Assembly (NCBI GenBank): GCA_041671325.1
Contig: JBAZBR010000003.1
Location: forward strand, 132,506 to 196,505
Direction: 5' to 3'
Length of the DNA: 64,000 nt
Source of the DNA: Patescibacteria group bacterium
Lineage (GTDB): Bacteria > Patescibacteriota > Patescibacteriia > PEXW01
Shown here: piece after piece, positions 3,212-36,500 of the stretch
Layout of the letters: every line of letters begins with the position of its first letter
Numbering within the stretch: position 1 is the stretch's first letter
Notes under the pieces: generated by a model
What the model was told of the DNA's origin: nothing
What the model saw: the letters and a program-made list of their open reading frames with translations, nothing else
Database searches by the model: none
Program-made: the position numbers and the translations under genes

Positions 3212-3286
3212 GCCCCCGTAGCTCAATGGATAGAGCTATCCCGTCCTAAGGGAGAGATGGAGGTTCGATTCCTTTCGGGGGCACCA
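3212..3286 (+). tRNA. tRNA-Arg (anticodon CCT), 75 nt including encoded CCA
   Basis: Cloverleaf folded by hand: acceptor GCCCCCG/CGGGGGC, D-arm GCTC-AATGGATA-GAGC, anticodon arm ATCCC-GTCCTAA-GGGAG, T-arm GGAGG-TTCGATT-CCTTT, then A and CCA. Confidence 0.85.
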
Positions 3287-4720
3287 CCCAGAATATGAGG
3301 CGCTTTGCGCCGCTATACCCCAGCCCAAATGGGCTTCAAATCGAAGCGTTTTGCCTTTCAAAAGAAAGTTCGAGCCGATATTTTTCATTGAATTCTTAAT
3401 TTCCAAGAGGTCGCGCGAGATTGCGACTTTTTTGGCTTGTTTACTTAATAAAATGAACTCTCGCATTGGTTCGAGCCAAACTAAACCCTCGCCCCGTAAT
3501 TGAGCGAATTTATCCTCAATTCTCACTTTTTCATTTACAAGCGTATCTTTCTTAGATAAATACTCCGAAGTGGTAATTGAACGCTCCAATTTTGCATCTA
3601 AAAGATTATCCAGCTTCTTTTCCACAACAACCAATGTATCTTTTTTCTTTTGGGCGAGGGCTTGAGTGGTCTGCTCGTTTCTCTCTTTTTCTTGGTCTAG
3701 CTTGACCAACATTTTATCCGCCCAGTCATCACGGATGGAATGAGTGGCTAAGGTCGCCCTCATTTGCTCCACTAGCGCTTCTTCACGCAAGAATTTCGTT
3801 TCACATCTGCCTTTCTTTTTGGTACAGCGGTAATACGTGTGTCCCTTCTGGCTTTCTGCCGTAATGTAGCAACCGCAAGAAGCGCATTTAATCAAGCCAA
3901 GAAAGGCAAAGTTATGTTTCTTTATTTCCCTCGCGCGACCTCGTTTACGCATCATCGCCTGGGCTTTATCAAACAATTCCCTTGAGATGAACGTATCATG
4001 GCTTCCCTGGTATGTCTCCCCGCAATAAGTAAACACGCCGCAGTAAAAAGTGTTTTTAAGCATGTTTTGTATCATGCTGGCAGAGTTTGGGTGGTTGTAG
4101 TGGCTTTTGAGCTTCACACGATTACACCAGTTGGCTAGAGCAGTTAATGTCCAGTCGCCGGTTACATACATAGTAAATAGCTTTTTGACTATTTTCGCTT
4201 CTCGTTTTTCAATGAGGATATTTCTACTTTTGGCGTCGTTGAAATAGCCAAGTGGCGCCATAGACGGCCACACACCGCGTCGTAGCTTCTGTCGTAGCCC
4301 ACGTTTCACGTTTTCCGATAGATTGTCTATGTAATACTTACTTTGTCCAAAAGCGATATTCAGCATGAATTTCCCTTGCGGCGTGTTCTCAAACCAAAAC
4401 GTGGGGAATTTCAGATTTTGGATTTTATCCCGATCGGTCAGGTAAATGACCTGTCCGCCGTCTACGGGATTTCTGGCCAGCCGATCAGGATGCCAGGCGA
4501 TGATGCCATTGGCTTCGCCCTTTTCTATTCTCTTCAGCATTTCATTGAAGATTTTCCGTCCGGGTTCTTTGGCAGTTTTTGCCTCGCAGAGCGAGGCGAC
4601 GATTTCAAGTTTTTCTTTGGCGGCAAATTCTTTTAATTCATCTATTTGAGATTCAATGCTTAACACCTGACGATCTTCCTCGTCAGTAGATTTCCTGGCA
4701 TAGAGAAAATATTTGTTCAT
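3236..4720 (-). CDS. Large serine recombinase (resolvase/invertase N-terminal catalytic domain + recombinase domain + zinc ribbon)
   Basis: N-terminus YARKSTDEEDRQVLSIESQ (catalytic Ser motif), ...DRLARN..., central recombinase domain, Cys cluster CASCGCY...YYRC, C-terminal coiled coil. Its 3' end runs into the 76-bp inverted repeat and the tRNA-Arg 3' end. Confidence 0.85.
   Translation of the reverse strand: MNKYFLYARKSTDEEDRQVLSIESQIDELKEFAAKEKLEIVASLCEAKTAKEPGRKIFNEMLKRIEKGEANGIIAWHPDRLARNPVDGGQVIYLTDRDKIQNLKFPTFWFENTPQGKFMLNIAFGQSKYYIDNLSENVKRGLRQKLRRGVWPSMAPLGYFNDAKSRNILIEKREAKIVKKLFTMYVTGDWTLTALANWCNRVKLKSHYNHPNSASMIQNMLKNTFYCGVFTYCGETYQGSHDTFISRELFDKAQAMMRKRGRAREIKKHNFAFLGLIKCASCGCYITAESQKGHTYYRCTKKKGRCETKFLREEALVEQMRATLATHSIRDDWADKMLVKLDQEKERNEQTTQALAQKKKDTLVVVEKKLDNLLDAKLERSITTSEYLSKKDTLVNEKVRIEDKFAQLRGEGLVWLEPMREFILLSKQAKKVAISRDLLEIKNSMKNIGSNFLLKGKTLRFEAHLGWGIAAQSASYSGWCPRKESNLHLSLRTG
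3281..3356. repeat. IR1-L: left copy of a perfect 76-bp inverted repeat; it starts inside the last 6 nt of tRNA-Arg
   Basis: 3281-3356 is the exact reverse complement of 4787-4860, checked base by base. Confidence 0.9.
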
Positions 4721-4786
4721 ATATTTTTAAGATTAAGAATTAAGAGGGGGAAGTGCGCTTCTGGCCCCTCCGCTTCGCGGAGAAAG

Positions 4787-4860
4787 GCAAAACGCTTCGA
4801 TTTGAAGCCCATTTGGGCTGGGGTATAGCGGCGCAAAGCGCCTCATATTCTGGGTGGTGC
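4787..4860. repeat. IR1-R: right copy of the 76-bp perfect inverted repeat flanking the recombinase gene
   Basis: Exact reverse complement of 3281-3356. Confidence 0.9.
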
Positions 4861-4944
4861 GGTCTTTTTGAGAAAATACGAACCGAGTTTGCGGGCGGCG
4901 GCTCGCGCGCGGAGGAGACCCAGCCGCCGCCCGCTGCCGCGCCG
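4853..4944. repeat. IR2-L: left copy of a second perfect inverted repeat (~92 bp, GC-rich); it overlaps IR1-R over the GCACCAC core
   Basis: 4853-4944 is the reverse complement of 6438-6529. Confidence 0.85.
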
Positions 4945-5086
4945 TGTTAAAAAACTACCAAAGAACCCTAGAAAAATATCGACTCTCACTTTCTTTTAGG
5001 CCAGAAGCGCACTTCCCCCTATTGCTTTAAGTCCAATTTGGACTATTCCATACTGGACTTTATCATGAATTTGTGAAACAATCAAT

Positions 5087-5308
5087 ATGAATAGCGAAAT
5101 CTACTCAAAAGAACATAAAAAGCTCATAGAACGCATAATACAGGCCCGAAAAGAGGCAGATTTAAGCCAGATGGAAGCAGCCAAGCGACTTGGCCGATCC
5201 CAGTCTTATATCTCAAAAATCGAGGTTGGACAGCGGAAGATTGACGTGATTGAGTTGAAAAAAATTGCCAAAGTATATAATGTTGCCATCAGTAGTTTAA
5301 TTAATTAA
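5087..5308 (+). CDS. XRE-family helix-turn-helix transcriptional regulator (73 aa)
   Basis: LSQMEAAKRLGRSQSYISKIEVGQRKIDVIELKKIAKVYNV is a classic HTH_XRE pattern. Confidence 0.75.
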   Translation: MNSEIYSKEHKKLIERIIQARKEADLSQMEAAKRLGRSQSYISKIEVGQRKIDVIELKKIAKVYNVAISSLIN

Positions 5309-5326
5309 TTTTTTTAAAATATATCT

Positions 5327-5950
5327 ATGATTTTTCTGTACATTTTATTAGCCATAATAGCATATATACTTTGGCGCATTTATCGCCAAAAGGAAGTGGA
5401 AAAAGAACGAATTACAAGTGAAAAGTTTAACGCTGAATGGGAACAAATTAGGAAAGAAGAATTTAAAAACTACCCTCATTTGATTGGAAAAGTTGATTAC
5501 GCCTGGCTTGAGCTTTTTGGGAAAGTTTTTGTCGAAAAAGATATGTCACACATAAACGCTGCTTTTTTAATATATGCAAAAGAAGCAAACAATACAAAGT
5601 TAGATATTATTGAGGTGGATCATCTATTTGACTCATTATGGGATCTTTCAGAGGAGCTCCTTGAGCATTTGGAAAAATATCACGAAAGCACTAAATACGA
5701 ATATGAAATAGCAATTCTTGCATTTTGGCAGATTGCCGCGCAAGGAGCTGACTCTTTTGTTGGAAAAGATATTGAAACAATAACAAAGATGTTCCAATCT
5801 GCCCCATTTACCGACATAGAAAAAATTCCTTCATGGTTTCCTAAAAAAGATAATCATCCAGTTAAAGAACTTTCTTTTAGAGGTGAAAACGCTAATTTCC
5901 CAAGAAAATCTGAAGGCTCGAAACTAATTCACGAAAGAATAACAGTCTAA
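5327..5950 (+). CDS. hypothetical protein with N-terminal TM helix (207 aa); cargo of the tRNA-Arg element
   Basis: Intact ORF. Hydrophobic N-terminus MIFLYILLAIIAYILW. No recognisable motif. Confidence 0.5.
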   Translation: MIFLYILLAIIAYILWRIYRQKEVEKERITSEKFNAEWEQIRKEEFKNYPHLIGKVDYAWLELFGKVFVEKDMSHINAAFLIYAKEANNTKLDIIEVDHLFDSLWDLSEELLEHLEKYHESTKYEYEIAILAFWQIAAQGADSFVGKDIETITKMFQSAPFTDIEKIPSWFPKKDNHPVKELSFRGENANFPRKSEGSKLIHERITV

Positions 5951-5971
5951 GAATTTGAAGCTGACAAATGA

Positions 5972-6400
5972 TTGCCGAAGATGAGCATATATAATAAAAC
6001 AAGAAAAATACCATTCGTATATTACTTATGCTATTTATTATGGATTTTGTTTATATGGGTTCTATTGTTGTCCCTCGAAATTAATATTACTTTAGAGTTC
6101 CTGAAAGAATATCTAAAAGTTGTTTTAAATACATTTATTGCAACAATTGTACTCATATTTGCGATTCAAATACCGCGTTTAGAAAAATTCAAAGACGATA
6201 AAGAAAAACAAACTGAAATAAAGAAAGATTGGGGTAAATTTCTGCAAAGATTTGTATTATTAATAATTTTTATCTTAGTAACTTTTCTTTCTCTAGAATT
6301 TTTTATTTTTGGTTTCTTAAAAGATTTTGTTTTGGCAGTAACGATTGTTGGACTGTTTTATCTTTTTAAATCTATCTTTTCATATCTAAGGAATATTTAA
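5972..6400 (+). CDS. hypothetical small membrane protein (142 aa, about 3-4 TM helices)
   Basis: Highly hydrophobic segments: YLCYLLWILFIWVLLLS; LLIIFILVTFLSLEFFIFGFL. Confidence 0.45.
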   Translation: MPKMSIYNKTRKIPFVYYLCYLLWILFIWVLLLSLEINITLEFLKEYLKVVLNTFIATIVLIFAIQIPRLEKFKDDKEKQTEIKKDWGKFLQRFVLLIIFILVTFLSLEFFIFGFLKDFVLAVTIVGLFYLFKSIFSYLRNI

Positions 6401-6437
6401 TTAGAACTTGCCGCTAAAGAAAAACTCGAAATCGTCA

Positions 6438-6529
6438 AAACGGCGCGGCAGCGGGCGGCGGCTGGGTCTCCTCCGCGCGCGAGCCGCCGCCCGCAAACTC
6501 GGTTCGTATTTTCTCAAAAAGACCGCACC
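6438..6529. repeat. IR2-R: right copy of the ~92-bp inverted repeat; it ends with GCACCAC, a direct repeat of the tRNA-Arg 3' end
   Basis: Reverse complement of 4853-4944. The terminal GCACCAC (6523-6529) duplicates 3281-3287. Confidence 0.85.
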
Positions 6530-6608
6530 ACGCGTCATCGCTTGCTTCACCCTTCGCGTGCTTGAGGTCTCAAGCCCGCTGCGGGTTCCTCAAGCGTGCC
6601 ACTTTCCC
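6523..6608 (+). repeat. Trailer element copy T-A (part 1), GC-rich, beginning GCACCACGCGTCATC
   Basis: Aligns with T-B (7336-) and T-C (7894-): CCACCACG..TCATC/AATC...CTTCACCC..., about 65-70% identity. Contains alternative-pairing stems GCTTGAGG / TCTCAAGC / CCTCAAGC. Confidence 0.5.
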
Positions 6609-6643
6609 CAATTTATAAAAAATAAATCGGGGACCCCATAAAA
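6606..6643. repeat. Mini-palindrome H-A: CCCCAATTTAT-aaaaa-ATAAATCGGGG followed by the conserved tail ACCCCATAAAA
   Basis: Four similar hairpins (6606, 7497, 7975, 8040) share CCCC(A)AAT..palindrome..ATTGGGG + (A/G)ACCCCAT(A/G)A. Confidence 0.6.
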
Positions 6644-6844
6644 TCACTTATAACTCTCTGCAAGGTTATCGCTTTTCCTCCCGAATGCTTGCTCCTTCCC
6701 ATCAACTGAGTTCGGAGTCGTGCGCACCTCATTCGTGAAGCTATGTTCCAGGCGCAGCCCGCTCTCCCTAAATTTTAAATTTGAAAATTTAGAGGCACCC
6801 ATTCAATTGATTATTTCGCAGACAGCAGCTTATCATATTTAAAA

Positions 6845-6960
6845 ATGTTACACGTGCCTGCCCGCCATCTGTAAATACTCCTATGTTTTATATACAATTC
6901 ATGAATTGTTCCACGTGGAACAATTTCAGTAATATAGACTAGGCATGGCAGGCGGGGAAC
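6845..6960. repeat. Module U1: ~115-bp imperfect palindrome centred on TTCCACGTGGAA, upstream of tRNA-Ala(CGC)
   Basis: AATGTTACACGTGCCTGCCCGCC ... TTGTTCCACGTGGAACAATTTCA ... GGCATGGCAGGCGGGGAAC. The second copy, U2 (7545-7660), has the same architecture and spacing. Confidence 0.7.
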
Positions 6961-7176
6961 GTTTTATAGATAAACTGTATTAACAACCAATTTAGCCTAT
7001 GGTTTAATGGTAGACTTTCCCGTCGAACCGCCTGTCTGCCGGTAGGCAGGGCAATGCAGGCGGGACGCGTCATTCGCACCCGCCTACCGGAGTACGGGCC
7101 GTTAGCTTCCGTCTTTACGAAGACGCTTCGTCGGACAAGCAGTTGGCAGAATTTTAACATAAATGACTTAATTTCC

Positions 7177-7250
7177 GGGGATATCGTATAGCGGTAATAC
7201 ACGGCATTCGCATTGCCGAGACCCGGGTTCGATTCCCGGTATCTCCACCA
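7177..7250 (+). tRNA. tRNA-Ala (anticodon CGC), 74 nt including encoded CCA
   Basis: Acceptor GGGGATA/TATCTCC with the G3:U70 Ala identity pair; D-arm GTAT-AGCGGTA-ATAC; anticodon arm CGGCA-TTCGCAT-TGCCG; T-arm CCGGG-TTCGATT-CCCGG; then A and CCA. Confidence 0.8.
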
Positions 7251-7335
7251 AGCCCGTACGGCATATAGGTTACCGAGGAGGTGGTCCCCCGCCTGCCTCA
7301 CAAGTGAGTCAAGTGGGCAGGGATTCCGCCTAGGC

Positions 7336-7496
7336 CCACCACGCGTCAATCCTTGCGTCGGGTTACGTGTGCTCAAAGTCTTGAGCCCACTCCACCCTTT
7401 ACAAGATTGCCGCTTTTCCTCGCAAACGCGTGCTCGTCCTGCATAGCAGGACTGCGCTCCACGCTTGCTTGGTAGATCCTGCAAGCATCCCGCTTA
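7336..7496 (+). repeat. Trailer element copy T-B (parts 1 and 2 contiguous), beginning CCACCACGCGTCAATC
   Basis: Homologous to 6523-6608 plus 6650-6760. Shared block CGCTTTTCCTC(G/C)C(A/G)AA(C/T)GC(G/T)TGCTC. Confidence 0.5.
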
Positions 7497-7529
7497 CCCA
7501 ATTTCATTGGTATTGATGATGAAATGGGG
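7497..7529. repeat. Mini-palindrome H-B: CCCAATTTCAT...ATGAAATGGGG
   Basis: Same hairpin class as H-A, H-C and H-D. Confidence 0.5.
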
Positions 7530-7544
7530 ACTCCTAATAAGTAA

Positions 7545-7660
7545 AATGTTCCACGTGCTTGCCCGCCACCTACAATTTATTCAATATTTACTTTATAATT
7601 ATTAAAATGTTCCACGTGGAACAATTTCAAACTTATCCCAAGGCATGGCAGGCGGGGAAC
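7545..7660. repeat. Module U2: second copy of the ~115-bp palindromic module (TTCCACGTGGAA core), upstream of tRNA-Ala(GGC)
   Basis: AATGTTCCACGTGCTTGCCCGCC...AATGTTCCACGTGGAACAATTTCA...GGCATGGCAGGCGGGGAAC. Confidence 0.7.
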
Positions 7661-7693
7661 ATATTGGAAATAAACGCTATAATTAGCAAAAAT

Positions 7694-7766
7694 ATGGGCC
7701 TCTAGTCCCGACTCCGCTATGCGGAGTCGAGGATCCACGTCCCGCCAAGCGGGACGGGACTCATTT
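7694..7766 (+). other. Partial duplicate of the tRNA-Ala(GGC) 5' end (GGGCCTCTAG ... CTCATTTAG), split by a 54-nt insert of two perfect GC hairpins
   Basis: GGGCCTCTAG and CTCATTT(G/A)G match tRNA positions 1-10 and 11-19. Insert hairpins: CGACTCCGC-tat-GCGGAGTCG and CGTCCCGC-caa-GCGGGACG. Confidence 0.6.
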
Positions 7767-7823
7767 AGAACAAATCTATATTTTTTCAGGCTTTTGATTG
7801 ATATATAATGTAGTATATTTTCT

Positions 7824-7899
7824 GGGCCTCTAGCTCATTTGGTAGAGCGCTTCCATGGCATGGAAGAGGTGAGGAGTTCGAGCCTCCTGAGGTCCACCA
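7824..7899 (+). tRNA. tRNA-Ala (anticodon GGC), 76 nt including encoded CCA
   Basis: Acceptor GGGCCTC/GAGGTCC with G3:U70; D-arm GCTC-ATTTGGTA-GAGC; anticodon arm CTTCC-ATGGCAT-GGAAG; T-arm AGGAG-TTCGAGC-CTCCT; then A and CCA. Confidence 0.85.
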
Positions 7900-7974
7900 C
7901 GAATCATCACGAACTTCACCCTACATTTGCTCGCTTAGGCGAGCCTATTTCGGGTTACGTTCGTGTGCTTCTTA
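7894..7974 (+). repeat. Trailer element copy T-C, starting within the tRNA-Ala(GGC) 3' end (CCACCACGAATCATC...)
   Basis: Aligns with T-A and T-B part 1. Ends CTTACCCC immediately before hairpin H-C. Confidence 0.45.
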
Positions 7975-8014
7975 CCCCAAATATTAGTTCCTAATATTTG
8001 GGGACCCCATGAAG
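7975..8014. repeat. Mini-palindrome H-C: CCCCAAATATTAG-ttc-CTAATATTTGGGG + ACCCCATGAAG
   Basis: Perfect 13-bp arms. Confidence 0.6.
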
Positions 8015-8039
8015 TGGGGTTTCACAAACGTGCCGCTTA

Positions 8040-8078
8040 CCCCAATTTTTTGATAAAAAATTGGGAACCCCATAATAC
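8040..8078. repeat. Mini-palindrome H-D: CCCCAATTTTTT-gat-AAAAAATTGGG + AACCCCATAATAC
   Basis: Preceded by CAAACGTGCCGCTTACCCC, which repeats the end of T-A (CAAGCGTGCCACTTTCCCC). Confidence 0.6.
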
Positions 8079-8212
8079 ATCGGGTTCCGATTGTGTACCA
8101 CTTAACAGGGTTTATAAAAGTAAATAATCACGAAATCTCGCTTCCCCACACGCCAGTTTCGCCGCATGGGGTTCCCTGAATGAAAAAAATGCGTTAAGTA
8201 GACTGCAATGCT

Positions 8213-8746
8213 CTAATCGGCAGTGGAAATTTGGCTACCGAGGTCTTTTGTTAATGCCCACCAGAGCGAGGTTTTTGTTACGCGGGGCAATGAACCGGCC
8301 TCTGTGTTTGGGATGGAAAGGATATCGTTATAAAGGTTCGCCTCGATGAATTTTCCTTGCGTGAATATAGAAACCAAGGTCGGATAGTCGGGATTTGGAT
8401 GATAAAGTAAGCTAACTTCCCCATTTTTCTTAGTAACATCCCTAAGCATAAGAATTGGCCGGTAATCGCCTTCAGAAACTTGGAATGGGTCATCTTTTGG
8501 AGCGAGAGCTGTATAAGCGTAAAAGCGGAAAGTACTGGCAAATGTAGGGCTGAGATGGTAATAAAAGCCAACTAGAATGATCGCAAATCCAAAAAGCATA
8601 AAAAGGCCACCTATTGAAACTACGATACGTCTCCAAAGACTGGTATGTTTTTTAACAATCACCCGGATGGTAGCCACTACTACAATAAGCCAAATTGGCA
8701 GGAGGACAAGCATTGGTATGTAATTTGTTCCAAGGTGTGATTCCAT
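8213..8746 (-). CDS. hypothetical membrane protein (177 aa; two N-terminal TM helices)
   Basis: Hydrophobic stretches IPMLVLLPIWLIVVVATI and VVSIGGLFMLFGFAIILVGFYY. Confidence 0.5.
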   Translation of the reverse strand: MESHLGTNYIPMLVLLPIWLIVVVATIRVIVKKHTSLWRRIVVSIGGLFMLFGFAIILVGFYYHLSPTFASTFRFYAYTALAPKDDPFQVSEGDYRPILMLRDVTKKNGEVSLLYHPNPDYPTLVSIFTQGKFIEANLYNDILSIPNTEAGSLPRVTKTSLWWALTKDLGSQISTAD

Positions 8747-8771
8747 AAAGTTTTCATTAAAGGCTAAATGA

Positions 8772-9515
8772 CTATTTCGATTTTAAACTCGATTGCCAAA
8801 GTAAATTAAAAAAGCCTTCTATTACTTGCTTAAAATCCAGACTCTCAATCATCAATCCGTAATTTTCTTTTTTTGAAGAAATTATAATAACTTTATTATC
8901 ATAAATAATTAAGCCGATTGAAAAGTCAAAATCTTTAGGTGCATACTTTAATTCACGATAATATTGTTTACCATGTCCAGATGCCTTATATTCACGTTCT
9001 TTTGATTTGATTCGAATGGTTTTTATATATATTTTTCGTTTAATTCTCTCTTGGATAAAATTTTCGATTTCTTCCTTACCAATAGTTTCAAACATATCCG
9101 TTACCGGCCATAAATAGTAAATCATTTTTGATTGGCAATTTAAGCCGTCATACATAAGATCAATTAAACCTTGTCTACCCTCGTAAAATTTTACTTTTGG
9201 TTTTTGACTACCTCGATTAAATAATGCTTCTAACACGGGTAAGGAATTTTTTATCAATTTTGACTTTCGTTCCAGGTCCTCCAAGATAAGTAAAGGTTTC
9301 TCAGCGCTATAAAATAATTTATCTTCTTTTGGGGTTGTCGCCACTAAGCCTTTAGATTTTAATTCATCTAAAATACGATAAACAGTCGGACGTTTTAATT
9401 CTGATTTTTTTGATAATTCTAAAACCGTACATGTTCCTAATTCAAGGATAGCTAAATAGACCTTTGCTTCTTTTTCGTTTAAACCATACTGCTTTAGTAT
9501 TTGCTCCAAGGTCAT
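8772..9515 (-). CDS. TrmB-family transcriptional regulator (paralog 1)
   Basis: N-terminal winged HTH: LGLNEKEAKVYLAILELGTCTVLELSKKSELKRPTVYRILDELKSKGLV. Overall architecture is shared with the 10796 and 21672 genes. Confidence 0.7.
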   Translation of the reverse strand: MTLEQILKQYGLNEKEAKVYLAILELGTCTVLELSKKSELKRPTVYRILDELKSKGLVATTPKEDKLFYSAEKPLLILEDLERKSKLIKNSLPVLEALFNRGSQKPKVKFYEGRQGLIDLMYDGLNCQSKMIYYLWPVTDMFETIGKEEIENFIQERIKRKIYIKTIRIKSKEREYKASGHGKQYYRELKYAPKDFDFSIGLIIYDNKVIIISSKKENYGLMIESLDFKQVIEGFFNLLWQSSLKSK

Positions 9516-9546
9516 ATGTTCTTATATTATCAAACTGAGGATATTT

Positions 9547-9563
9547 TGTCCATAATTTGGACA
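9547..9563. promoter_or_regulatory. Palindrome TGTCCA-taatt-TGGACA, 32 nt upstream of the TrmB paralog 1 start; candidate (auto)operator
   Basis: Perfect 6-5-6 inverted repeat in the divergent intergenic region. Confidence 0.4.
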
Positions 9564-9630
9564 TCAAACAAGCTAATGATTAAAATACCCATTATTTTAT
9601 AGAGTTATTAGTAAAATAGTGTCCATAGTA

Positions 9631-9659
9631 TTGACAATCAGATATTGTTTTGTTAAATT
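9631..9659 (+). promoter_or_regulatory. sigma70-like promoter (TTGACA - 17 nt - TAAATT) for the 9706 gene
   Basis: Consensus -35 hexamer, 17-nt spacer, and an AT-rich -10 hexamer. Confidence 0.5.
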
Positions 9660-9705
9660 GTATCGTTGCTCTTTTCGTTCTTTAAAAACTAAAAAGGAGT
9701 GCTTT

Positions 9706-10041
9706 ATGCCATGGAAATGCATCAAAGAAAATCGAATTTATAGAATACACTGCGGCTTAACTAATGTTTACGTAAATTGGAACCGTGAGAATGGTGAATT
9801 TCATATTTTTGCTGGGGGTTATCAAGCATCACATTATTTGCCGCCACCAGGTAATACGGAAAAAATATTATCCGTTGATGAACCAGAGTTCTTCTATAAA
9901 CTATGGTCAAGGTTTAGGCTGGAAAAAGGATTACCCGATCACTTTTATGAGCTGCTTGATCATCTGTTTATCGCTTTGCATATCGAAGTAATTTATCTTA
10001 AAAGACCGGGTAAGTATTTCAAACTGGTTAATGATGATTAA
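9706..10041 (+). CDS. hypothetical protein (111 aa)
   Basis: Start chosen at the ATG preceded by AAAGGAG. The upstream in-frame extension overlaps the promoter. Confidence 0.45.
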   Translation: MPWKCIKENRIYRIHCGLTNVYVNWNRENGEFHIFAGGYQASHYLPPPGNTEKILSVDEPEFFYKLWSRFRLEKGLPDHFYELLDHLFIALHIEVIYLKRPGKYFKLVNDD

Positions 10042-10113
10042 ATAACTTAAATCATATCAGCTGTTTTGGGCTTCTTTAATGCTAATGAAGGATTTTAAGC
10101 TCGAGGAGATGAA

Positions 10114-10617
10114 ATGCTGACAATAGTTTTTTGCGTGTTAGGTTGCGCTATTTGGCTGATAAACCGTTATGGAGGCAAGCCGTTAAGCTTTGAAAAAGTC
10201 GTGCTTGGCTTCATTATGCTTTTTCTCAGCACGTGCCTGGGATTAATCTTGGCATTTTTGGTCGGTAGTTGCTTTAAGCAACAGATGGTTCAGGTGCAAG
10301 AAATTCCCTTGATTGCATTACGGGGCAGTGCACTGCCAAGCGGAAATTTTTTTCTTGGCACTGGCCAATTAGATGCCGAAATGTACTACTGGTTCTATCG
10401 TCGATTGCCGGAGGATGATAATTGCTTTCAGGTGGAAAAGCTAAAGGCTGATAACGAAGTAATTTATCTTTATGAAGAAGACAGGCCCGATGGTGTACTT
10501 CGCAAGTTCCAAAGTGATTTTGTGAACCATAGCCATCTATTTGGATTTCCAGCTATCAAGCTGCGTTTTGAATTTCATGTCCCACGTGGCAGTATCGCCA
10601 GGAACTTTGCGTTATAA
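10114..10617 (+). CDS. hypothetical membrane protein (167 aa, 2 TM helices)
   Basis: RBS GGAGAT before the ATG. TM segments IVFCVLGCAIWLI and LGFIMLFLSTCLGLILAFLVG. Confidence 0.5.
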   Translation: MLTIVFCVLGCAIWLINRYGGKPLSFEKVVLGFIMLFLSTCLGLILAFLVGSCFKQQMVQVQEIPLIALRGSALPSGNFFLGTGQLDAEMYYWFYRRLPEDDNCFQVEKLKADNEVIYLYEEDRPDGVLRKFQSDFVNHSHLFGFPAIKLRFEFHVPRGSIARNFAL

Positions 10618-10795
10618 AATTCTTATAACGGGTGGAGAATATCCACCCGTTTGGTAATTTTGTCGGGAGCAGAAATTATGGCGACGAAAATTCTTTTGAT
10701 TAGGAATTACAAAAAAACTGGCCAGAAGCCTTCAAGGCTTCGGGATACAAGCTAAAATAGTCCAAAATTAACCGGATGCATCAAGTGATCCGGTT

Positions 10796-11551
10796 TTATT
10801 TTAAAACTTTACTTATCCGCCATAGCATGTCAAAAAGCGCCTTCTGATTGTAAGCAAATTCTTCGGATTCAATAATCATCCCAAAATTTTCTTTTTTTGA
10901 GGAAATAATAGAAACAATATTGTCGTACAAATACATAGTCATTGAAAATTTGAAATCTTTAGGCGTTAAGCGGACTTCACGCTTATCTTTAATACTGCTT
11001 GCCCACTTATATTTTTTAACTGTTTTTATTACCTCCTTGCTTTCCGGCCTTAAAGATAATAAGTTGTAACCTTTTTTGATCCGATCTTGAGTAAGTTTTT
11101 CAAAAAATTCCTCTCCGACTAAATCTAAAATATCCTTTAAAGGTAATATGCTTCTTAAAGTTTTTTCTTGGGCTTCCAAAGTTTTTTCCAAAACAGTTTT
11201 GACTCCAGTTGCACCTTCGTAATATTCCATGCGAGGCTTGACGCCGGGGACATAGAACATTGATTTCAGCTGGGGCAATAAGGCGTCAAGCTCCGCTTCT
11301 TTTTGCCGAATAGAATTTTTCAACGTACTCGGGTCTTCGGCGACAAACAACCTTTTTTTGCCCTTGATGGTCTGGGTAACCAATTGCTTATTAATCAAAT
11401 TCTGAAGAAGGTCATAGACTGAAGTTCTTTTGATTTGGGTAATATCCGCAATTTTTTGGACAGAGGATTGGCCGAGCTCCAAGCAGGCGAGATACACCTC
11501 AGCTTGTTTTTGGTTTAGCCCGAAATTTTCTAGTTTTTTTGATATTTCCAT
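10796..11551 (-). CDS. TrmB-family transcriptional regulator (paralog 2)
   Basis: LGLNQKQAEVYLACLELGQSSVQKIADITQIKRTSVYDLLQNLINKQLV. Confidence 0.7.
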   Translation of the reverse strand: MEISKKLENFGLNQKQAEVYLACLELGQSSVQKIADITQIKRTSVYDLLQNLINKQLVTQTIKGKKRLFVAEDPSTLKNSIRQKEAELDALLPQLKSMFYVPGVKPRMEYYEGATGVKTVLEKTLEAQEKTLRSILPLKDILDLVGEEFFEKLTQDRIKKGYNLLSLRPESKEVIKTVKKYKWASSIKDKREVRLTPKDFKFSMTMYLYDNIVSIISSKKENFGMIIESEEFAYNQKALFDMLWRISKVLK

Positions 11552-33002: not shown

Positions 33003-33114
33003 GTCAACCCCGCACCACTTTCCAAAATAAATCTGAGAATAGTTGTAGAAATTTCTTGCGATAAATATCCATGTTTTTAATAAATATTTTTATGGAAAGT
33101 GGTGCGGGGTTGAC
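33003..33114. promoter_or_regulatory. Perfect 21-bp inverted repeat pair (GTCAACCCCGCACCACTTTCC / GGAAAGTGGTGCGGGGTTGAC) enclosing a 70-bp AT-rich segment, upstream of the surface-protein locus; candidate invertible promoter or operator
   Basis: Arms at 33003-33023 and 33094-33114 are exact reverse complements. Confidence 0.5.
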
Positions 33115-33598: not shown

Positions 33599-36500
33599 AT
33601 GCCAAAAGCTAAAAGAAGAAAATCGAAGAATAAAATAACAAGGACTAAAAAGCTTTTTAATGTTTTTGAATTTTTTAAGCATAATTTAAAGCAATCAGCC
33701 GGCATGGCCGTGATTTTTTTGGTTTTTGGAGTTTGGATGCTTGTGCAGGCGCAAAATCCTGAAGCGCCAATCTACCAGGCCAAGCCAGCGACTTGCTCTG
33801 GTTGGCAGGCACCTGACCAAGCCAAGGCAATTAACCTGATGGCTTCGGCTGGCCGAGAGGATTTTTCTACGGAAAATTCAGCATATATTTCCAATGTAAA
33901 TTTTATTGCTAATCAGAATAATAACGATCTCAAAGTCAATTTAACTGATTCGCAAACCATACTCAGCTGTTCTGGCTTTACCTTGCCAGATAACTTGCCA
34001 AAAAATGGCCGTTTAGTTTCTAATAAATTGATAGTTTCTTTGGCTGCTAATGGCTTTACGGAAAGTGAAGATGTTTTAGTTTTACAATACAGCCTGGATG
34101 GTAAGACTTGGCAAAAAATTGATTCGTTTGCGATCACGGATTCCATCAGCAATGCCACGCATGGTGATTTTTGGCAGGTAGAAATTCCAAATTTTAGCCT
34201 CGACCAAGTTTCCAAGCTACAATTCCGGGCGGATTTCCAAACCTTGCCTTCCGACGAAGTTTCCACGGTCTTGTTTGACGGCGTGAATTTGGAATTGGTC
34301 GTGGATAAGCCGTTATCTGGTAAACCTGCTGATTTATCAAAGGACATCATAAAAATAAACAAGACAACTTTTAATAAGTTTGAAGATCCAGTCATTACTT
34401 TAGAAACTGAAAAAAAATCTAGACTTGATTTTTTGGGCTTTGATGGCACCCAGCGAAAAATTGAAGAAGTGAGCATGATTGATCCAAGTGGCCAGGAAAT
34501 TATCCCAGATTTTGAAACTGACAAGATTGTGCAAGGTTCAAGCACGTATGACGCCTATAAAATAAAAACCCAGAACTATAAACGGCCGGGGAAATACCGA
34601 GTGGAATTTACCGTAATTCAGGATAATAACCAAGATGTAATAACCCGGGAGTTTTATTGGGGGGTTTTAGTAGTGAACTCGGATAAGTCTGTTTATCATC
34701 CGGGTGAAACCGCTTCTATCGGCATGGCGGTTTTGGATAGTTTCGGCAGTACGCTCTGTGATGCCAAGGTCGATTTAAGCGTTGCCGCGCCAAACGGTGA
34801 AGTCAAGACATTTTCAACCGACGATAATAGCGTAGAGAGGTCTGCAAAATGCGGAGCCCATACAGTCACCAATTTGCCGGATTACAGCGCCAAATATGAT
34901 ACTTCTGACGAAGGCGAATATACCCTAACCGTAACTTCAACAACAAAAGAAGGCGTGAATACCATTTCGGACAAGTTTTTCGTCAAACCGATTATTCCTT
35001 TTGACGTGATTCGCGATACGCCGACCCGAATTTATCCGGGCGCTGAATACGATACGAATTTAATTGTCACTCCCCAGCAAGATTATACCGGGACTTTTGA
35101 AGATTTTGTGCCGGATAATTTTAAAATCCTGACGGTCAGTAATTCTGGGAAAACCGAGATATTAAATAACGGTAAAATCAAAATTTTATGGAATGTCGAT
35201 TGGCAGGCGGGCAAGCAATATGTTTTAAGCTACCATTTTGATCCGCCAAAGATAAACCCGGCCATTTTTACGGTCGGGCAATTTAAAAGCGGATCCATTA
35301 ACCAGCAAGGTGAAGTTTTTGAAGAATATCGGCCCTGGCAGATTGCTTTTGACGCCACCTGTACTTCCAAAGCCACAGCTGCCTGGAACGTAGGTACGAC
35401 CTGGAATACCTGTGGGGCCAACGGGCCAGTGGCTGGTGATACCGTTATTTTAGCTTCAGGTTTTGTCGTATCCTGCCCAGCGACGATTACTTGTTCAGCC
35501 GCGACAATTACCGTGAACCAGCCATCCACGAGCAATGGTTTAATGCTGTCGGCCTCGACCAGCCGAGTGACCCTGACCGGCGCTTTGACTATTAATGGTT
35601 CGACTGGATCAAACAGCAAAAACGCTTCGATTGTGGTTGGTGCGGGTACGCTCGACGCGGCCAGTGTTTCCATGGTCACCACGGCTGGAACAAACCGGAA
35701 CGCGATATTAAGCGTCAGCACCGGGACCATTAACATTACTGGCAATATTTCTTTTTCTGGCGTTGCAGCGTTTAACAAATTGACTTTTTCCAGCACCGGT
35801 ACGCTCAACATTGGGGGGACAATTGGCACCGGCGGGACTTTAACGCCTAGCACTGGCACGGTGAATTTTAACGGCGGCGCGGCACAAACCCTGGAAAGCA
35901 CGTACACCTATAACAACGTTACCATTACCAATACTTCCGGCAATGTGGCCACCAACGGCACCACCACCATTAACGGCAATTTAACCATGACTTCCGGCTC
36001 GCTGACTGGTACTGACAATATTACCGTAATAAAGAATGTAGTTTGTGGCGTGACCTGCGGGACAATCAGCCGTACCGGCGGCACCTTTACCCAGCAAGTC
36101 GGCGCCGCGCAAAATTTTGGCACCAATGTGGCCGTGGCCACGGATTGGACTTTCAATGATTTGGTGTTTGACCAGGGCGCGGCCGGATCATTCACCATCA
36201 CCACGTCAGCTACCGGTACGGGCGCGAATATTGTCAACGGAAATTTAAGCACCACCCTAACAACGGGAACCACCTTAACAATAGACAACAATACTAATGA
36301 TCGGATTTTTGACGTGGCTGGCAATTTTACGGTTGGCGCGAATACGGTTTGGAGCTCTTCCAGTGGTACCGCTTTAACTTCTTTTACCATCGGCGGGAGT
36401 TTTGCCAATAATGGGACCTTTACCCACAATAGCGGCACCGTTACTTTTGATTCAGCTGGAACCGGCAATACCGTCAATACCGCAACTTTTTATAATATTA

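What the first reader, a model, noticed from the sequence alone, without database searches (positions are those of the whole stretch)
6523..8200. Gene-free 1.7-kb tRNA-Ala tract made of repeated modules: upstream palindromes, tRNA-3'-end-initiated trailers, and mobile-looking mini-hairpins
Between the inserted element and the next protein gene there are two tRNA-Ala genes (anticodons CGC and GGC). Each is preceded at a similar distance by a ~115-bp imperfect palindrome centred on TTCCACGTGGAA (6845-6960 and 7545-7660). After each tRNA, and after the split tRNA-Arg, comes a diverged GC-rich trailer (6523-, 7336-, 7894-) that starts with a tRNA-3'-end-like CCACCACG. The trailers contain mutually exclusive pairing options (GCTTGAGG / TCTCAAGC / CCTCAAGC). 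Four copies of a CCCC-AT-palindrome-GGGG hairpin, each followed by (A/G)ACCCCAT(A/G)A, sit at different positions relative to the trailer halves. That placement suggests they insert independently. The tract looks like either a family of structured tRNA-linked RNAs, or accumulated scars of repeated tRNA-targeted integrations. The 86-nt segment 7251-7336 also ends with a tRNA-like ...GGCCCACCA.
Basis: seen in the sequence. Interest (0 to 1): 0.6.

Follow-up and report, generated by a model that had tools for sequence, protein, structure and literature searches.

The report
tRNA genes riddled with hairpin insertions
This gene-free stretch of a Patescibacteria genome is a repeated array of tRNA units in which older tRNA-Ala copies have been broken by small hairpin insertions, one of which carries the working tRNA-Ala gene, and one insert belongs to an undescribed mobile family also found in distant bacteria.

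Summary
The tract 6532-8212 is gene-free and holds two intact tRNA-Ala genes, three homologous trailers, two 118-nt palindromes and six mini-hairpins.

The tract is not a set of dedicated tRNA-linked RNA genes. It is a diverged tandem array (tRNA, trailer hairpin, upstream palindrome) overlaid with hairpin insertions:
- **Decayed outer tRNA (6995-7341).** A decayed resident tRNA-Ala(CGC) gene is split in three places. The insert at position 37/38 carries the intact tRNA-Ala(CGC) at 7177-7250. This explains the "86-nt segment ending in CCA".
- **Filled and empty site (7696-7766).** The first 17 nt of tRNA-Ala(GGC) are split after G10 by a 54-nt double-hairpin element (TCCCGA...TCGAGGATCCACG...CGGGA).
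- **Element family.** About 28 copies were found in Patescibacteria and Bacteroidota. The family is absent from Rfam. It inserts without target duplication, mostly into tRNA copies. One copy is a precise 29-codon in-frame insertion in clpC. Variants carry a GIY-YIG gene or a whole tRNA-Ala.
- **Trailer hairpin.** The 72-nt hairpin shows 13 of 19 compensatory pairs among its three copies, but occurs nowhere else in the data searched.

How the elements move and what the trailers do are inferred, not shown.

The parts
6528..6599 (+). Trailer hairpin A: 72-nt module directly after the GCACCAC core. It was originally the 3' flank of tRNA-Arg(CCT).
   Evidence: CM R1 94.2 bits. Fold z -3.0. Gap-free alignment with B and C. 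13/19 pairs compensatory.
6607..6633 (+). Mini-hairpin A1 (CCCCAAT...ATCGGGG), followed by ACCCCATAA.
   Evidence: Fold z -2.9.
6768..6797 (+). Degenerate mini-hairpin A2 (CCCTAAATTTT...AAAATTTAGAGG). Its left flank GCAGCCCGCTCT resembles that of hairpin B.
   Evidence: Sequence. I13. Fold z -1.0. Collinearity of 6653-6790 with trailer B.
6845..6962 (+). Upstream palindrome 1. Arms are GTTAC..CCTGCCCGCC and GGCAGGCGGGGAAC; centre is GTTCCACGTGGAAC. It ends 33 nt before the outer tRNA remnant.
   Evidence: Fold -39.4 kcal/mol, z -3.6.
6995..7015 (+). Outer pseudo-tRNA-Ala(CGC), piece 1: acceptor 5' strand plus D arm (GCCTATGGTTTAATGGTAGAC).
   Evidence: 20/22 identical to the intact tRNA of relative L056. 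Reconstructed outer copy is 88% identical over 66 nt.
7016..7064 (+). Insert 1: GC-rich hairpin (TCCCGTC...GGCGGGA foot) between the D arm and anticodon stem, about position 26/27.
   Evidence: Its 3' foot is homologous to the palindrome's right arm (family D4).
7065..7078 (+). Outer pseudo-tRNA piece 2: anticodon stem 5' strand plus loop (ACGCGTCATTCGCA, anticodon CGC).
   Evidence: 86% identical to 7199-7212 of the intact tRNA (D12).
7079..7176 (+). Insert 2, 5' part. GTACGGGC pairs with GCCCGTAC at 7252-7259. Contains an inner GC hairpin and an AT-rich leader. Inserted after A37 of the outer tRNA.
   Evidence: Same site and design as L066.
7177..7250 (+). Intact inner tRNA-Ala(CGC), carried inside insert 2.
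   Evidence: ARAGORN. Rfam 64.8 bits. 88% identical to the inner tRNA of L066.
7251..7269 (+). Insert 2, 3' part (AGCCCGTACGGCATATAGG), closing the stem around the inner tRNA.
   Evidence: sequence.
7270..7284 (+). Outer pseudo-tRNA piece 3: U38, anticodon stem 3' strand, variable region and T stem 5' strand (TTACCGAGGAGGTGG).
   Evidence: Alignment to L056 TTGCCGAGACCCGAG.
7285..7323 (+). Insert 3: hairpin TCCCCCGCCTGCC...GGGCAGGGA in the T loop, after G53.
   Evidence: Similar hairpin at the same tRNA position in L025. Same position also used in L027/L028.
7324..7341 (+). Outer pseudo-tRNA piece 4: T stem 3' strand, acceptor 3' strand and CCA (TTCCGCCTAGGCCCACCA).
   Evidence: After excision of the inserts ARAGORN does not call a tRNA, so the copy is decayed.
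7339..7410 (+). Trailer hairpin B.
   Evidence: CM R1 88.6 bits. Fold z -3.5. Middle stem flipped relative to A and C: GGGT/ACCC versus ACCC/GGGT.
7497..7529 (+). Mini-hairpin B.
7546..7663 (+). Upstream palindrome 2. It ends 33 nt before the tRNA-Ala(GGC) 5' fragment. TATAAT lies at 7678-7683.
   Evidence: Fold z -3.7. TATAAT seen.
7696..7705 (+). 5' fragment of tRNA-Ala(GGC), nt 1-10 (GGGCCTCTAG).
   Evidence: Together with 7760-7766, identical to 7824-7840 at 17 of 17 positions.
7706..7759 (+). Canonical double-hairpin insertion element: TCCCGA-hairpin-TCGAGGATCCACG-hairpin-CGGGA.
   Evidence: CM R2 48.8 bits, E 1.7e-10. Fold -39.8 kcal/mol, z -6.6. Homologues in 20+ loci.
7760..7771 (+). 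Continuation of the tRNA-Ala(GGC) 5' fragment (CTCATTT, then degenerate AGAAC).
7824..7899 (+). Intact tRNA-Ala(GGC). It serves as the 'empty site' copy for the element at 7706-7759.
7897..7968 (+). Trailer hairpin C.
   Evidence: CM R1 88.4 bits. Fold -29.7 kcal/mol, z -5.7. Region 7870-10895 is identical in an independent sample (L001).
7975..8003 (+). Mini-hairpin C1, a perfect 13-bp stem.
   Evidence: I12. Fold z -5.1.
8040..8066 (+). Mini-hairpin C2, duplicated in tandem together with its left flank. 8017-8075 is 80% identical to 6583-6641.
   Evidence: D2. Fold z -2.7.
8144..8170 (+). Degenerate mini-hairpin C3 (CCCCA...TGGGG).
   Evidence: minus-strand match at 8166-8176. Fold z +0.3, so weak.
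3287..6524 (.). Context: inserted element with a large serine recombinase gene. It separates tRNA-Arg(CCT) from trailer A.
   Evidence: Pfam Resolvase/Recombinase/Zn_ribbon_recom. Core and inverted repeats.

Best explanation
The tract is a three-unit tandem array of tRNA transcription units: Arg(CCT), Ala(CGC) and Ala(GGC). Each unit is followed by a 72-nt hairpin plus AU-rich mini-hairpins. The two Ala units are each preceded by a 118-nt palindrome. Small GC-footed hairpin insertion elements have colonised this array.

**Shown**
1. Region 6995-7341 is a resident-type tRNA-Ala(CGC) gene, now decayed. It is split at about 26/27, exactly at 37/38, and in the T loop by three hairpin inserts.
2. 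The insert at 37/38 contains the intact tRNA-Ala(CGC), held in a stem formed by its own leader and trailer.
3. A copy of nt 1-17 of tRNA-Ala(GGC) is split after G10 by a 54-nt element.
4. That element belongs to a sequence family found in Patescibacteria and Bacteroidota. It inserts without target duplication, 3' of a G, in a fixed orientation relative to the tRNA sense strand.
5. One family member is a clean in-frame insertion in a clpC gene. The family is therefore mobile DNA that host genes tolerate.

**Inferred**
- The elements are selfish.
- Insertion into a single-copy tRNA gene survives only if a working copy is supplied. That copy is either carried in a loop of the element (the nested tRNA-Ala here, and in L025, L045, L006, L066, L053 and L072) or present as an adjacent duplicate.
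- Spread is probably by homing. One relative carries a GIY-YIG nuclease gene in a loop of the element.
- The disrupted outer copies then decay.
- The trailer hairpins and palindromes are the 3' end/processing and upstream regions of the duplicated unit. They are kept as hairpins by selection. Some, such as the palindrome arms and insert 1, derive from the same kind of hairpin element.
- No nuclease gene remains in this window, so the tract is a fossil rather than an active element.
For: **Nested tRNA in the window**
- Four outer pieces lie in the correct order and are 88% identical to the intact tRNA of relative L056.
- The anticodon piece ACGCGTCATTCGCA matches ACACGGCATTCGCA (D12).

**Same architecture elsewhere**
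- In L066 the outer copy is 96% identical to the intact tRNA of L083. The inner tRNA is 82% identical to L083 but 88% identical to the window's inner tRNA. ARAGORN calls tRNA-Ala(CGC) once both inserts are removed.
- L025, L045, L006 and L072 have the inner tRNA-Ala in the second hairpin of a TCCCGA element that sits at 35/36 of an outer tRNA-Ala.

**Filled and empty site**
- In the window, 17 of 17 flanking nt match.
- Precise filled/empty pairs also occur for tRNA-Met (L021), Phe (L027/L028), Ile (L010) and Arg (L043, L016).

**Family**
- The genome scan gave 43 loci, of which about 22 are structured.
- CM R2 gives 55 matches counting both strands, about 28 places.
- The hairpins covary, though the copies were selected for pairing.
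- All 12 tRNA-embedded copies lie in the same orientation.
- No Rfam family matches.

**Mobility**
- A 29-codon insertion in clpC of L066 is absent from 10 homologues of 52-84% identity.
- The GIY-YIG ORF sits inside the element in L006.

**Trailers**
- 94.7% of cells are paired and 13/19 pairs are compensatory. Slid controls give 21-47%.
Against: - Only one canonical family member is in the window. Inserts 1-3, the palindromes and the mini-hairpins are assigned to 'the same kind of element' by design (GC foot, variable stem) and short shared motifs. CM R2 does not detect them.
- The window's outer tRNA is too decayed for ARAGORN, so its reconstruction rests on alignment.
- No nuclease or transposase lies in the tract, and no strain lacking an insert was found. 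Mobility at this locus is therefore not shown.
- Whether duplication came before insertion, or the element brought the tRNA, cannot be decided.
- Trailers and palindromes have no homologues elsewhere, so their role is a guess. No canonical terminator was found on the + strand.
- The similar T-loop hairpin at the same position in the window and in L025 could mean the outer scaffold is conserved for a function rather than hit repeatedly.
- The interior of the tract comes from a single metagenome assembly.
Confidence: 0.55

Rival explanations
1. The tract consists of scars of integrase-mediated events plus plain tandem duplication. Serine or tyrosine recombinase elements that target tRNA 3' ends repeatedly integrated, duplicated tRNA parts and decayed. 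The hairpins are ordinary terminators and leftover att arms. The single TCCCGA element is an incidental passenger.
For: - A large serine recombinase element sits at the 3' end of tRNA-Arg with core GCACCAC.
- All three trailers begin with CACCACG directly after a tRNA-type CCA end.
- Recombinase-gene fragments lie near tRNA-Ala(CGC) in relatives L066, L080 and L084.
- L054 has repeated CACCACGC units upstream of its tRNA.
- The 700-810 nt periodicity shows that tandem duplication did happen.
Against: - Integrase scars are direct repeats of the tRNA 3' part at island borders. Here the breaks lie inside the tRNA at three structural junctions.
- Each break is filled by a 39-190 nt hairpin with inverted termini and no flanking repeat.
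- The same precise pattern recurs in other phyla with one conserved element.
- A full tRNA enclosed in a stem at position 37/38 of a same-type tRNA is not what att recombination produces.
Confidence: 0.2
2. The tract encodes functional structured RNA. The outer tRNA-like scaffold, trailer hairpins and palindromes are selected parts of long tRNA precursors. They could act as processing platforms, stabilisers, terminators or regulator-binding sites. On this reading they are not parasites.
For: - There is strong compensatory change in the trailer hairpin.
- The palindrome arms and centre are conserved while the AT-rich parts diverge.
- The element orientation is fixed relative to the tRNA sense strand in 12 of 12 cases.
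- The nested tRNA-Ala architecture recurs, with a hairpin at the same T-loop position in the window and in L025.
- TATAAT boxes lie just upstream of both the outer fragment and the intact tRNA.
Against: - Trailer and palindrome modules are found nowhere else.
- The outer tRNA has a broken acceptor stem and is not recognisable as a tRNA.
- The canonical element also sits in frame inside protein genes and has DNA two-fold symmetry. Both point to DNA-level selfish spread.
- Hairpin covariation is equally expected for DNA palindromes.
Confidence: 0.15
3. The inserts are true introns of a new bacterial type. They are removed from RNA by self-cleavage or a host nuclease plus a ligase such as RtcB, so that outer tRNAs remain functional.
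For: - Insertions are precise, have no target duplication, lie in one orientation and occupy structural junctions, including the canonical 37/38 site.
- A nuclease ORF sits in a peripheral loop, as in mobile group I introns.
- Excision in silico restores a tRNA in L066.
Against: - In the window the outer tRNA is decayed even after excision.
- An intact same-type tRNA always accompanies the interrupted copy. Splicing would make that unnecessary.
- The clpC copy keeps the reading frame open, as expected if it is translated rather than spliced.
- There is no group I, group II, HDV-like or hammerhead signal in Rfam.
- No bulge-helix-bulge motif is seen on inspection.
- The 5' flank does not co-vary with the conserved centre, so no HDV-like P1 helix can be drawn.
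Confidence: 0.05
4. The tract is an assembly artefact: a chimeric or collapsed repeat region in a MEGAHIT metagenome contig.
For: - The source is a single k141 metagenome contig.
- Short-k Logan contigs from other samples break at 3310 and 7870.
Against: - The repeats are only 57-83% identical, far too diverged to mislead an assembler.
- Compensatory changes and ordered tRNA pieces cannot arise from misjoins.
- Region 7870-10895 is identical in an independent sample.
- The Logan breaks are explained by the 79-nt inverted repeat and by tRNA sequence.
Confidence: 0.03

Closest known systems
Rickettsia palindromic elements (RPE). From my own knowledge: Ogata et al. 2000, Science. The term also occurs in PMC1779305, listed but not read.
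   Same: Short palindromic selfish repeats that insert into genes without destroying them. This includes in-frame insertion into protein-coding genes and insertion into RNA genes. The clpC copy in L066 behaves this way.
   Different: - The sequence is unrelated. Homology to RPE was not tested here, because no RPE sequences were available.
- It occurs in Patescibacteria and Bacteroidota, not Rickettsia.
- It has a strong preference for tRNA-derived DNA at stem-loop junctions.
- It has a defined double-hairpin design with the invariant centre TCGAGGATCCACG.
- Its loops can carry a nuclease gene or a whole tRNA.
Repetitive hairpin-forming and double-hairpin elements, and GC clusters, of mitochondrial genomes (PMC2800124, read; PMC4478555, listed)
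   Same: - GC-rich single or double hairpins that spread in AT-rich genomes.
- They lie mostly in intergenic DNA but also in rRNA genes and occasionally in protein genes.
- They occur in tandem as multiple hairpins.
- No adaptive function is known (PMC2800124).
   Different: - Those are organellar, not bacterial.
- No case is known to me of such an element carrying a replacement tRNA or targeting the inside of tRNA genes.
Free-standing GIY-YIG homing endonucleases in tRNA gene clusters, such as phage T4 SegB (PMC2330249; PMC13096335; abstracts seen)
   Same: A GIY-YIG nuclease gene embedded among tRNA genes promotes inheritance of itself and flanking tRNA DNA. PMC13096335 also reports segmental amplification of tRNA loci. 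L006 has a GIY-YIG ORF inside the element next to the tRNA it carries.
   Different: - SegB is a phage gene without a surrounding hairpin element.
- It does not split a resident tRNA gene around a replacement copy.
- No nuclease gene is present in this window.
- No cleavage activity was tested.
tRNA-targeting integrative elements that carry part of the tRNA in attP (general knowledge)
   Same: They are inserted in tRNA genes and bring sequence that restores a working tRNA, leaving displaced tRNA fragments. One real serine-recombinase element sits at tRNA-Arg in this window.
   Different: The inserts here are 39-190 nt, have inverted rather than direct terminal repeats, carry no integrase, and bring a complete tRNA rather than a 3' part.
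Archaeal and red-algal tRNA genes with multiple introns at non-canonical positions, which use bulge-helix-bulge splicing (PMC4090602, PMC3728597, listed)
   Same: [quoted passage not shown] One is at 37/38.
   Different: - The host here is bacterial.
- No bulge-helix-bulge motif is seen.
- Interrupted copies are accompanied by an intact copy and decay.
- There is no evidence of splicing.
HDV-like theta ribozymes next to phage tRNAs (PMC10879173, listed)
   Same: A small structured element next to tRNA genes. The GTCCC...GGGAC helix looks superficially like HDV P2.
   Different: - The 5' flank varies and cannot form P1 with the invariant centre.
- The first hairpin is 5-12 bp long, not a 3-bp P3 with a loop.
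- There is no Rfam hit.
- The element has DNA two-fold symmetry.

Membership tests
tRNA (Rfam RF00005 / ARAGORN) | Full cloverleaf scoring above the gathering threshold | tested here: met
   7177-7250 scores 64.8 bits and 7824-7899 scores 55.6 bits against a gathering score of 29. ARAGORN calls Ala-CGC and Ala-GGC.
tRNA (outer copy 6995-7341 with inserts removed) | Recognisable tRNA after in-silico excision | tested here: not met
   ARAGORN finds nothing in two reconstructions. Only alignment-level homology remains, at 88% to the L056 tRNA. It is a pseudogene.
TCCCGA double-hairpin insertion element (unnamed family defined here) | Termini TCCCGA and CGGGA, with centre TCG(A/T)GGATCC(A/T/G)CG between two variable hairpins | tested here: met
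   Window 7706-7759. CM R2 48.8 bits, E 1.7e-10.
TCCCGA double-hairpin insertion element | Precise insertion 3' of a G without target-site duplication, shown by a filled and an empty site | tested here: met
   7696-7705 plus 7760-7766 equals 7824-7840 at 17 of 17 positions.
TCCCGA double-hairpin insertion element | Membership of inserts 1-3, the palindromes and the mini-hairpins of the window | tested here: not met
   CM R2 finds no further copy in the window at E<=1. These features share only the design and short motifs such as GGCAGGCGGG.
Rickettsia palindromic elements | Sequence homology to an RPE family | not tested
   No RPE sequences were available in the tools. Only the behaviour is alike: in-frame insertion in clpC.
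Group I / group II introns | Conserved catalytic core detectable by Rfam models | tested here: not met
   No such hit at E<=10 in 6300-8300 or at gathering score in 20 loci. The inserts are 39-190 nt.
Bulge-helix-bulge introns | Two 3-nt bulges separated by a 4-bp helix at the exon-intron borders | tested here: not met
   By inspection of the borders. The termini form a continuous helix. The predicted fold has single bulged A residues only.
HDV-like / theta ribozymes | Nested double pseudoknot with P1 formed by the 5' end and the strand after P3 | tested here: not met
   The 5' flanks vary while the proposed partner is invariant. No Rfam hit. No cleavage test was possible.
Permuted tmRNA (RF04321) | Score at or above the gathering threshold of 47 bits | tested here: not met
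   23.9 bits at 7223-7283, which is only the T arm and CCA of tRNA-Ala plus the next hairpin. ARAGORN finds no tmRNA.
Integrase att scars | Direct repeats of a recombination core at the borders of a recombinase-bearing element | tested here: inconclusive
   Met for 3287-6524, with core GCACCAC and a serine recombinase. The trailers all start with CACCACG, but no element or recombinase lies between them.
Intrinsic terminators | GC-rich hairpin directly followed by a U run | tested here: not met
   The consensus scan finds none on the + strand in 6300-8400. After the trailer hairpins only short CUUU, CUUUU or CUUCUU stretches occur, 3-6 nt away.
MITEs (transposase-dependent) | Terminal inverted repeats plus target-site duplication | tested here: not met
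   Inverted termini are present but no duplication is seen at any of about 12 filled/empty pairs.

The most novel reading that the evidence does not exclude
The hairpin elements form a previously unrecognised class of bacterial mobile element. This class invades tRNA genes at structural junctions and compensates by delivering a replacement tRNA in one of its own loops, giving a tRNA nested within a tRNA. It spreads across phyla by GIY-YIG-driven homing or by an RNA-level mechanism. The strongest version is that the conserved centre, the fixed orientation and the 37/38 site reflect RNA-level excision, which would make these a new kind of bacterial tRNA intron.
Probability: 0.2. Interest if true: 0.85.

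Novelty: new variant of a known kind. Interest (0 to 1): 0.62.

Why it matters
- **Annotation.** Small-genome bacteria such as Patescibacteria usually have one gene per tRNA. An element that can land inside these genes and survive by bringing a spare would be a neat example of a parasite paying its own cost. It would also explain the puzzling tRNA fragments and 'gene-free' GC-rich tracts in these genomes, and it would matter for tRNA annotation. Interrupted copies and nested genes confuse gene finders.
- **A cross-phylum marker.** The double-hairpin element has an invariant 13-nt centre, is absent from Rfam, and was not found in the literature searches. It offers a marker of horizontal exchange between Patescibacteria and Bacteroidota. 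It is also a candidate substrate for the many small orphan GIY-YIG proteins.
- **If the rivals are right.** The tract is then only a locally duplicated tRNA spacer with terminators, and of modest interest.

Tried and rejected
1. **Synteny.** Homologues of the flanking 177-aa protein are only 44-59% identical and sit in unrelated contexts. No orthologous tract could be compared.
2. **Anchoring on the tRNA.** The tRNA-Ala(CGC) anticodon arm retrieved 37 metagenome loci, but only the tRNA itself is conserved. This gave the nested examples but no relative of the trailers or palindromes.
3. **Rfam.** Searches at gathering score and at E<=10 returned only tRNAs and a sub-threshold permuted-tmRNA hit, which is just the T arm plus CCA.
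4. **tmRNA 5' domain reading of 7696-7765.** Dropped. No tmRNA is called, and the region is a closed hairpin pair.
5. **HDV-like ribozyme reading.** Dropped after the 5' flanks proved variable.
6. **Three-way-junction RNA reading.** The conserved bases allow either a junction or two adjacent hairpins. The minimum-energy fold is two hairpins, and covariation cannot tell them apart.
7. **Viral contigs.** The one hit is a chance match in high-GC coding DNA. About half of the genome-scan hits were also chance matches in high-GC genes.
8. **Whole-region fold of 6995-7340.** Uninformative.
9. **Literature.** Searches for tRNA introns or palindromic insertions in Patescibacteria, and for the core sequence, found no description. 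The sequence search returned only BamHI primers.
10. **Genome-wide mobile family of mini-hairpins.** No copy lies outside the tract in 64 kb.

Full report
**Source and setting**

The window is part of ENA contig ERZ27249449 k141_1044463, 209.9 kb long. Homologues of a flanking protein are named by their sources as Patescibacteria proteins. The tract lies between an inserted element carrying a large serine recombinase gene (3236-4720, minus strand) and the stop codon of a 177-aa gene at 8213. The ORFs inside the tract have no Pfam domain.

**Checking the observation**

ARAGORN and Rfam agree on three intact tRNA genes: Arg(CCT) 3212-3286, Ala(CGC) 7177-7250 and Ala(GGC) 7824-7899.

The repeat search shows a diverged tandem duplication with a period of 700-810 nt:
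- Palindromes 6842-6980 and 7543-7680 are 78-83% identical.
- Three trailers begin with CACCACG directly after a CCA end.
- GTTCCACGTGGAAC occurs only twice in the 64 kb, against 0.15 expected.
- The GGGGACCCCAT motif occurs only in the tract.
- Trailer homology is significant by nhmmer.

So the description is accurate. Four corrections apply. tRNA-Arg is intact. The CCA of the 86-nt segment ends at 7341. There are six mini-hairpins, not four. The fold shared by the three trailers is one long hairpin.

**The trailers**

The first 72 nt after the CCA align without a single gap. All three fold into the same hairpin: an outer stem, a 4-bp middle stem, a 3-bp stem and a 6-bp stem capped by a tetraloop. 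Fold z-scores are -3.0, -3.5 and -5.7. Across the three copies:
- 94.7% of cells are paired.
- 13 of 19 pairs changed on both sides. The middle stem is flipped in copy B.
- Slid controls give 21-47% pairing.

A covariance model of this module scores 88-94 bits on the three copies. It finds nothing else in the window or in 61 sources of related DNA totalling 416 kb. Rfam has no match. The consensus scan finds no terminator on the + strand.

The structure is therefore maintained, but the module is local to this tract. It is not a family in the data available.

**The mini-hairpins**

All six copies have the same left flank, C(C/G)CT(T/C)(T/A). Two are a tandem duplication that includes the flank: 8017-8075 is 80% identical to 6583-6641. 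Trailer A carries a second, degenerate copy at 6768-6797. With that copy recognised, trailer A becomes collinear with trailer B. The differing positions are therefore explained by two hairpin slots plus local duplication or loss. Independent insertion is not needed.

**The key lead**

A distant Patescibacteria genome, L006, was fetched while testing synteny. It holds a clear homologue of window 7696-7765 about 70 nt upstream of a tRNA-Ala gene.

A scan of one genome per species with GTCCCGAC...GTCGAGGATCCAC gave 43 loci. About half are chance matches in high-GC coding DNA. About 22 share one design: G|TCCCGA, a variable hairpin, TCG(A/T)GGATCC(A/T/G)CG, a second variable hairpin, CGGGA|N. They come from Patescibacteria, Bacteroidota and unclassified MAGs.

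- Covariance model R2 finds about 28 places, reported as 55 matches counting both strands. One copy is in the window, at 7705-7760 (48.8 bits).
- No Rfam family covers the element.
- The two hairpins covary strongly. The copies were picked for pairing, so that percentage is biased.
- The element has DNA two-fold symmetry. Its reverse complement differs at two positions of the centre, and some copies have the perfect palindrome TCGAGGATCCTCGA.
- Its minimum-energy fold is two adjacent hairpins, each with one bulged A (-39.8 kcal/mol, z -6.6).

**What the element does**

In 12 loci the element lies inside tRNA sequence, always with the same strand as the tRNA sense strand. In every case an intact tRNA of the same kind lies beside the interrupted copy. 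Comparing the two gives precise filled and empty sites with no target duplication, always 3' of a G. The sites are 10/11, the D loop, 26/27, 35/36, 53/54 and 65/66.

In the window, 7696-7705 plus 7760-7766 equal the first 17 nt of tRNA-Ala(GGC) at 17 of 17 positions. The 54-nt element sits between them.

Six other copies lie inside long ORFs without breaking them. For one of them, in the clpC gene of L066, an alignment with ten homologues of 52-84% identity shows a clean 29-residue insertion exactly at the element.

The element is therefore mobile DNA that host genes tolerate. This resembles the Rickettsia palindromic elements (my own knowledge) and the mitochondrial hairpin-forming elements (PMC2800124).

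**Nested tRNAs**

In L025, L045, L006 and L072 a larger version of the element sits between G35 and C36 of an outer tRNA-Ala. It holds a complete tRNA-Ala inside its second hairpin, whose stem is formed by the leader and trailer of that inner tRNA. In L006 the first hairpin loop holds an 80-aa GIY-YIG ORF.

L066 and L053 show the same architecture with different hairpin feet. In L066:
- The outer copy is 96% identical to the intact tRNA of relative L083.
- The inner tRNA is 82% identical to L083.
- ARAGORN calls tRNA-Ala(CGC) once both inserts are removed.

**Re-reading the window**

Region 6995-7341 has the same architecture:

| Coordinates | Content |
|---|---|
| 6995-7015 | Acceptor 5' strand and D arm of a resident-type tRNA-Ala(CGC), 20/22 identical to L056 |
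| 7016-7064 | Insert 1, a hairpin |
| 7065-7078 | Anticodon stem and loop |
| 7079-7269 | Insert 2, after A37; a stem (GTACGGGC/GCCCGTAC) encloses the intact tRNA-Ala(CGC) |
| 7270-7284 | From U38 to the T stem |
| 7285-7323 | Insert 3, a hairpin in the T loop |
| 7324-7341 | Remainder of the tRNA, ending in CCA |

The reconstructed outer copy is 88% identical to the L056 tRNA. The inner tRNA is 88% identical to the inner tRNA of L066. The outer copy has a broken acceptor stem and is not called by ARAGORN, so it is a pseudogene.

Insert 3 resembles the T-loop hairpin of the outer tRNA in L025. The 3' foot of insert 1 resembles the right arm of the palindromes (family D4). The motif GTTCCCCGCCTGCC recurs next to tRNA-Arg copies in L016 and L025. 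These links are short, and model R2 does not detect them.

**Interpretation**

- **Shown:** the anatomy; the family; precise insertion without duplication; the fixed orientation; the in-frame clpC insertion; the nested design in several lineages; the decay of the outer copy here.
- **Inferred:** the elements are selfish. Insertions into tRNA genes persist only when a working copy is supplied by the element or by an adjacent duplicate. Spread is by homing, by analogy with GIY-YIG SegB in the T4 tRNA cluster (PMC2330249). The trailer hairpins and palindromes are the end and upstream regions of the duplicated unit.

The main rivals are:
- integrase scars plus plain duplication, which the real recombinase element at tRNA-Arg and the shared CACCACG make plausible;
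- functional precursor RNA;
- true introns.

None of these is excluded. The evidence for and against each is given in the Rival explanations section.

**Limits**

- The interior of the tract comes from one assembly.
- No close relative of the tract was found.
- No RNA data or biochemistry could be run.
- The literature searches cover only the held library. Absence of a prior description is therefore not proof of novelty.

Noticed in passing
window 3281-3359 / 4782-4860 and 4854-4948 / 6437-6531: The serine-recombinase element contains an inverted copy of its own circular junction. Region 4782-4948 is the reverse complement of 6437-6531 joined to 3281-3359 through the shared core GCACCAC. Each half of the element is therefore bounded by inverted repeats, of 79 nt at 100% and 95 nt at 99%. 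This could be an invertible arrangement or a record of a second recombination. It is unexplained.
   Followed up: partly
window 4742-4766 / 4999-5023 and 3360-3386 / 4971-4997: Further inverted repeats (96% and 89% complementary) bracket the internal attP-like segment.
   Followed up: no
window 6403-6436 (and 4598-4631): A 34-nt stretch just inside the right end of the element is a 91% inverted copy of part of the recombinase coding region. Similar stretches occur near tRNA-Ala(CGC) in L066, L080 and L084, suggesting that related recombinase elements frequent these tRNA loci.
   Followed up: no
window 33005-33114: A 110-nt hairpin with a perfect 24-bp stem (GTCAACCCCGCACCACTTTCCA...) and an AT-rich loop, in an intergenic region. 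Its foot resembles the stem that encloses the inner tRNA in L066, and it contains the recombinase core GCACCAC.
   Followed up: no
window 62730-62770 and 35202-35215: More copies of the CCTGCCCGCC / GGCAGGCGGG motif. The one at 62730 forms a nested GC-rich hairpin.
   Followed up: no
L066 8503-8589: An 87-nt double-hairpin element is a precise in-frame 29-codon insertion in clpC. It is absent from ten homologues.
   Followed up: yes
L006 7404-7830 and 6513-6782: An 80-aa GIY-YIG ORF sits in the first hairpin loop of an element that splits tRNA-Ala(UGC) at 35/36 and carries an intact tRNA-Ala(UGC). A second small GIY-YIG gene lies directly upstream of tRNA-Leu.
   Followed up: partly
L006 2274-2400: The tRNA-Ile 3' end and its trailer are duplicated, with the T arm of the copy replaced by the hairpin TCTCCCGCAGGGAGA. 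This is a hairpin-only form of insertion.
   Followed up: no
L021 700-1150 (Bacteroidota MAG): A copy of tRNA-Met carries three inserted hairpin elements, in the D stem, D loop and anticodon loop, and breaks off in the T loop. It sits directly upstream of the intact tRNA-Met. L022 (Flavobacteriales) shares the first two insertions.
   Followed up: partly
L054 1-124: Upstream of tRNA-Ala(CGC) there are repeated units starting with CACCACGC after tRNA-3'-end-like sequence. They are reminiscent of the window's trailer starts, but no wider similarity was detected.
   Followed up: no
window 3310 and 7870 (ends of L003 and L001): Contigs from two other samples (SRR6484324, SRR18595301) are 100% identical to the window. 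They stop 30 nt into the 79-nt inverted repeat and inside tRNA-Ala(GGC), respectively. This is consistent with short-k assembly breaking at repeats, so the same organism occurs in other samples.
   Followed up: partly
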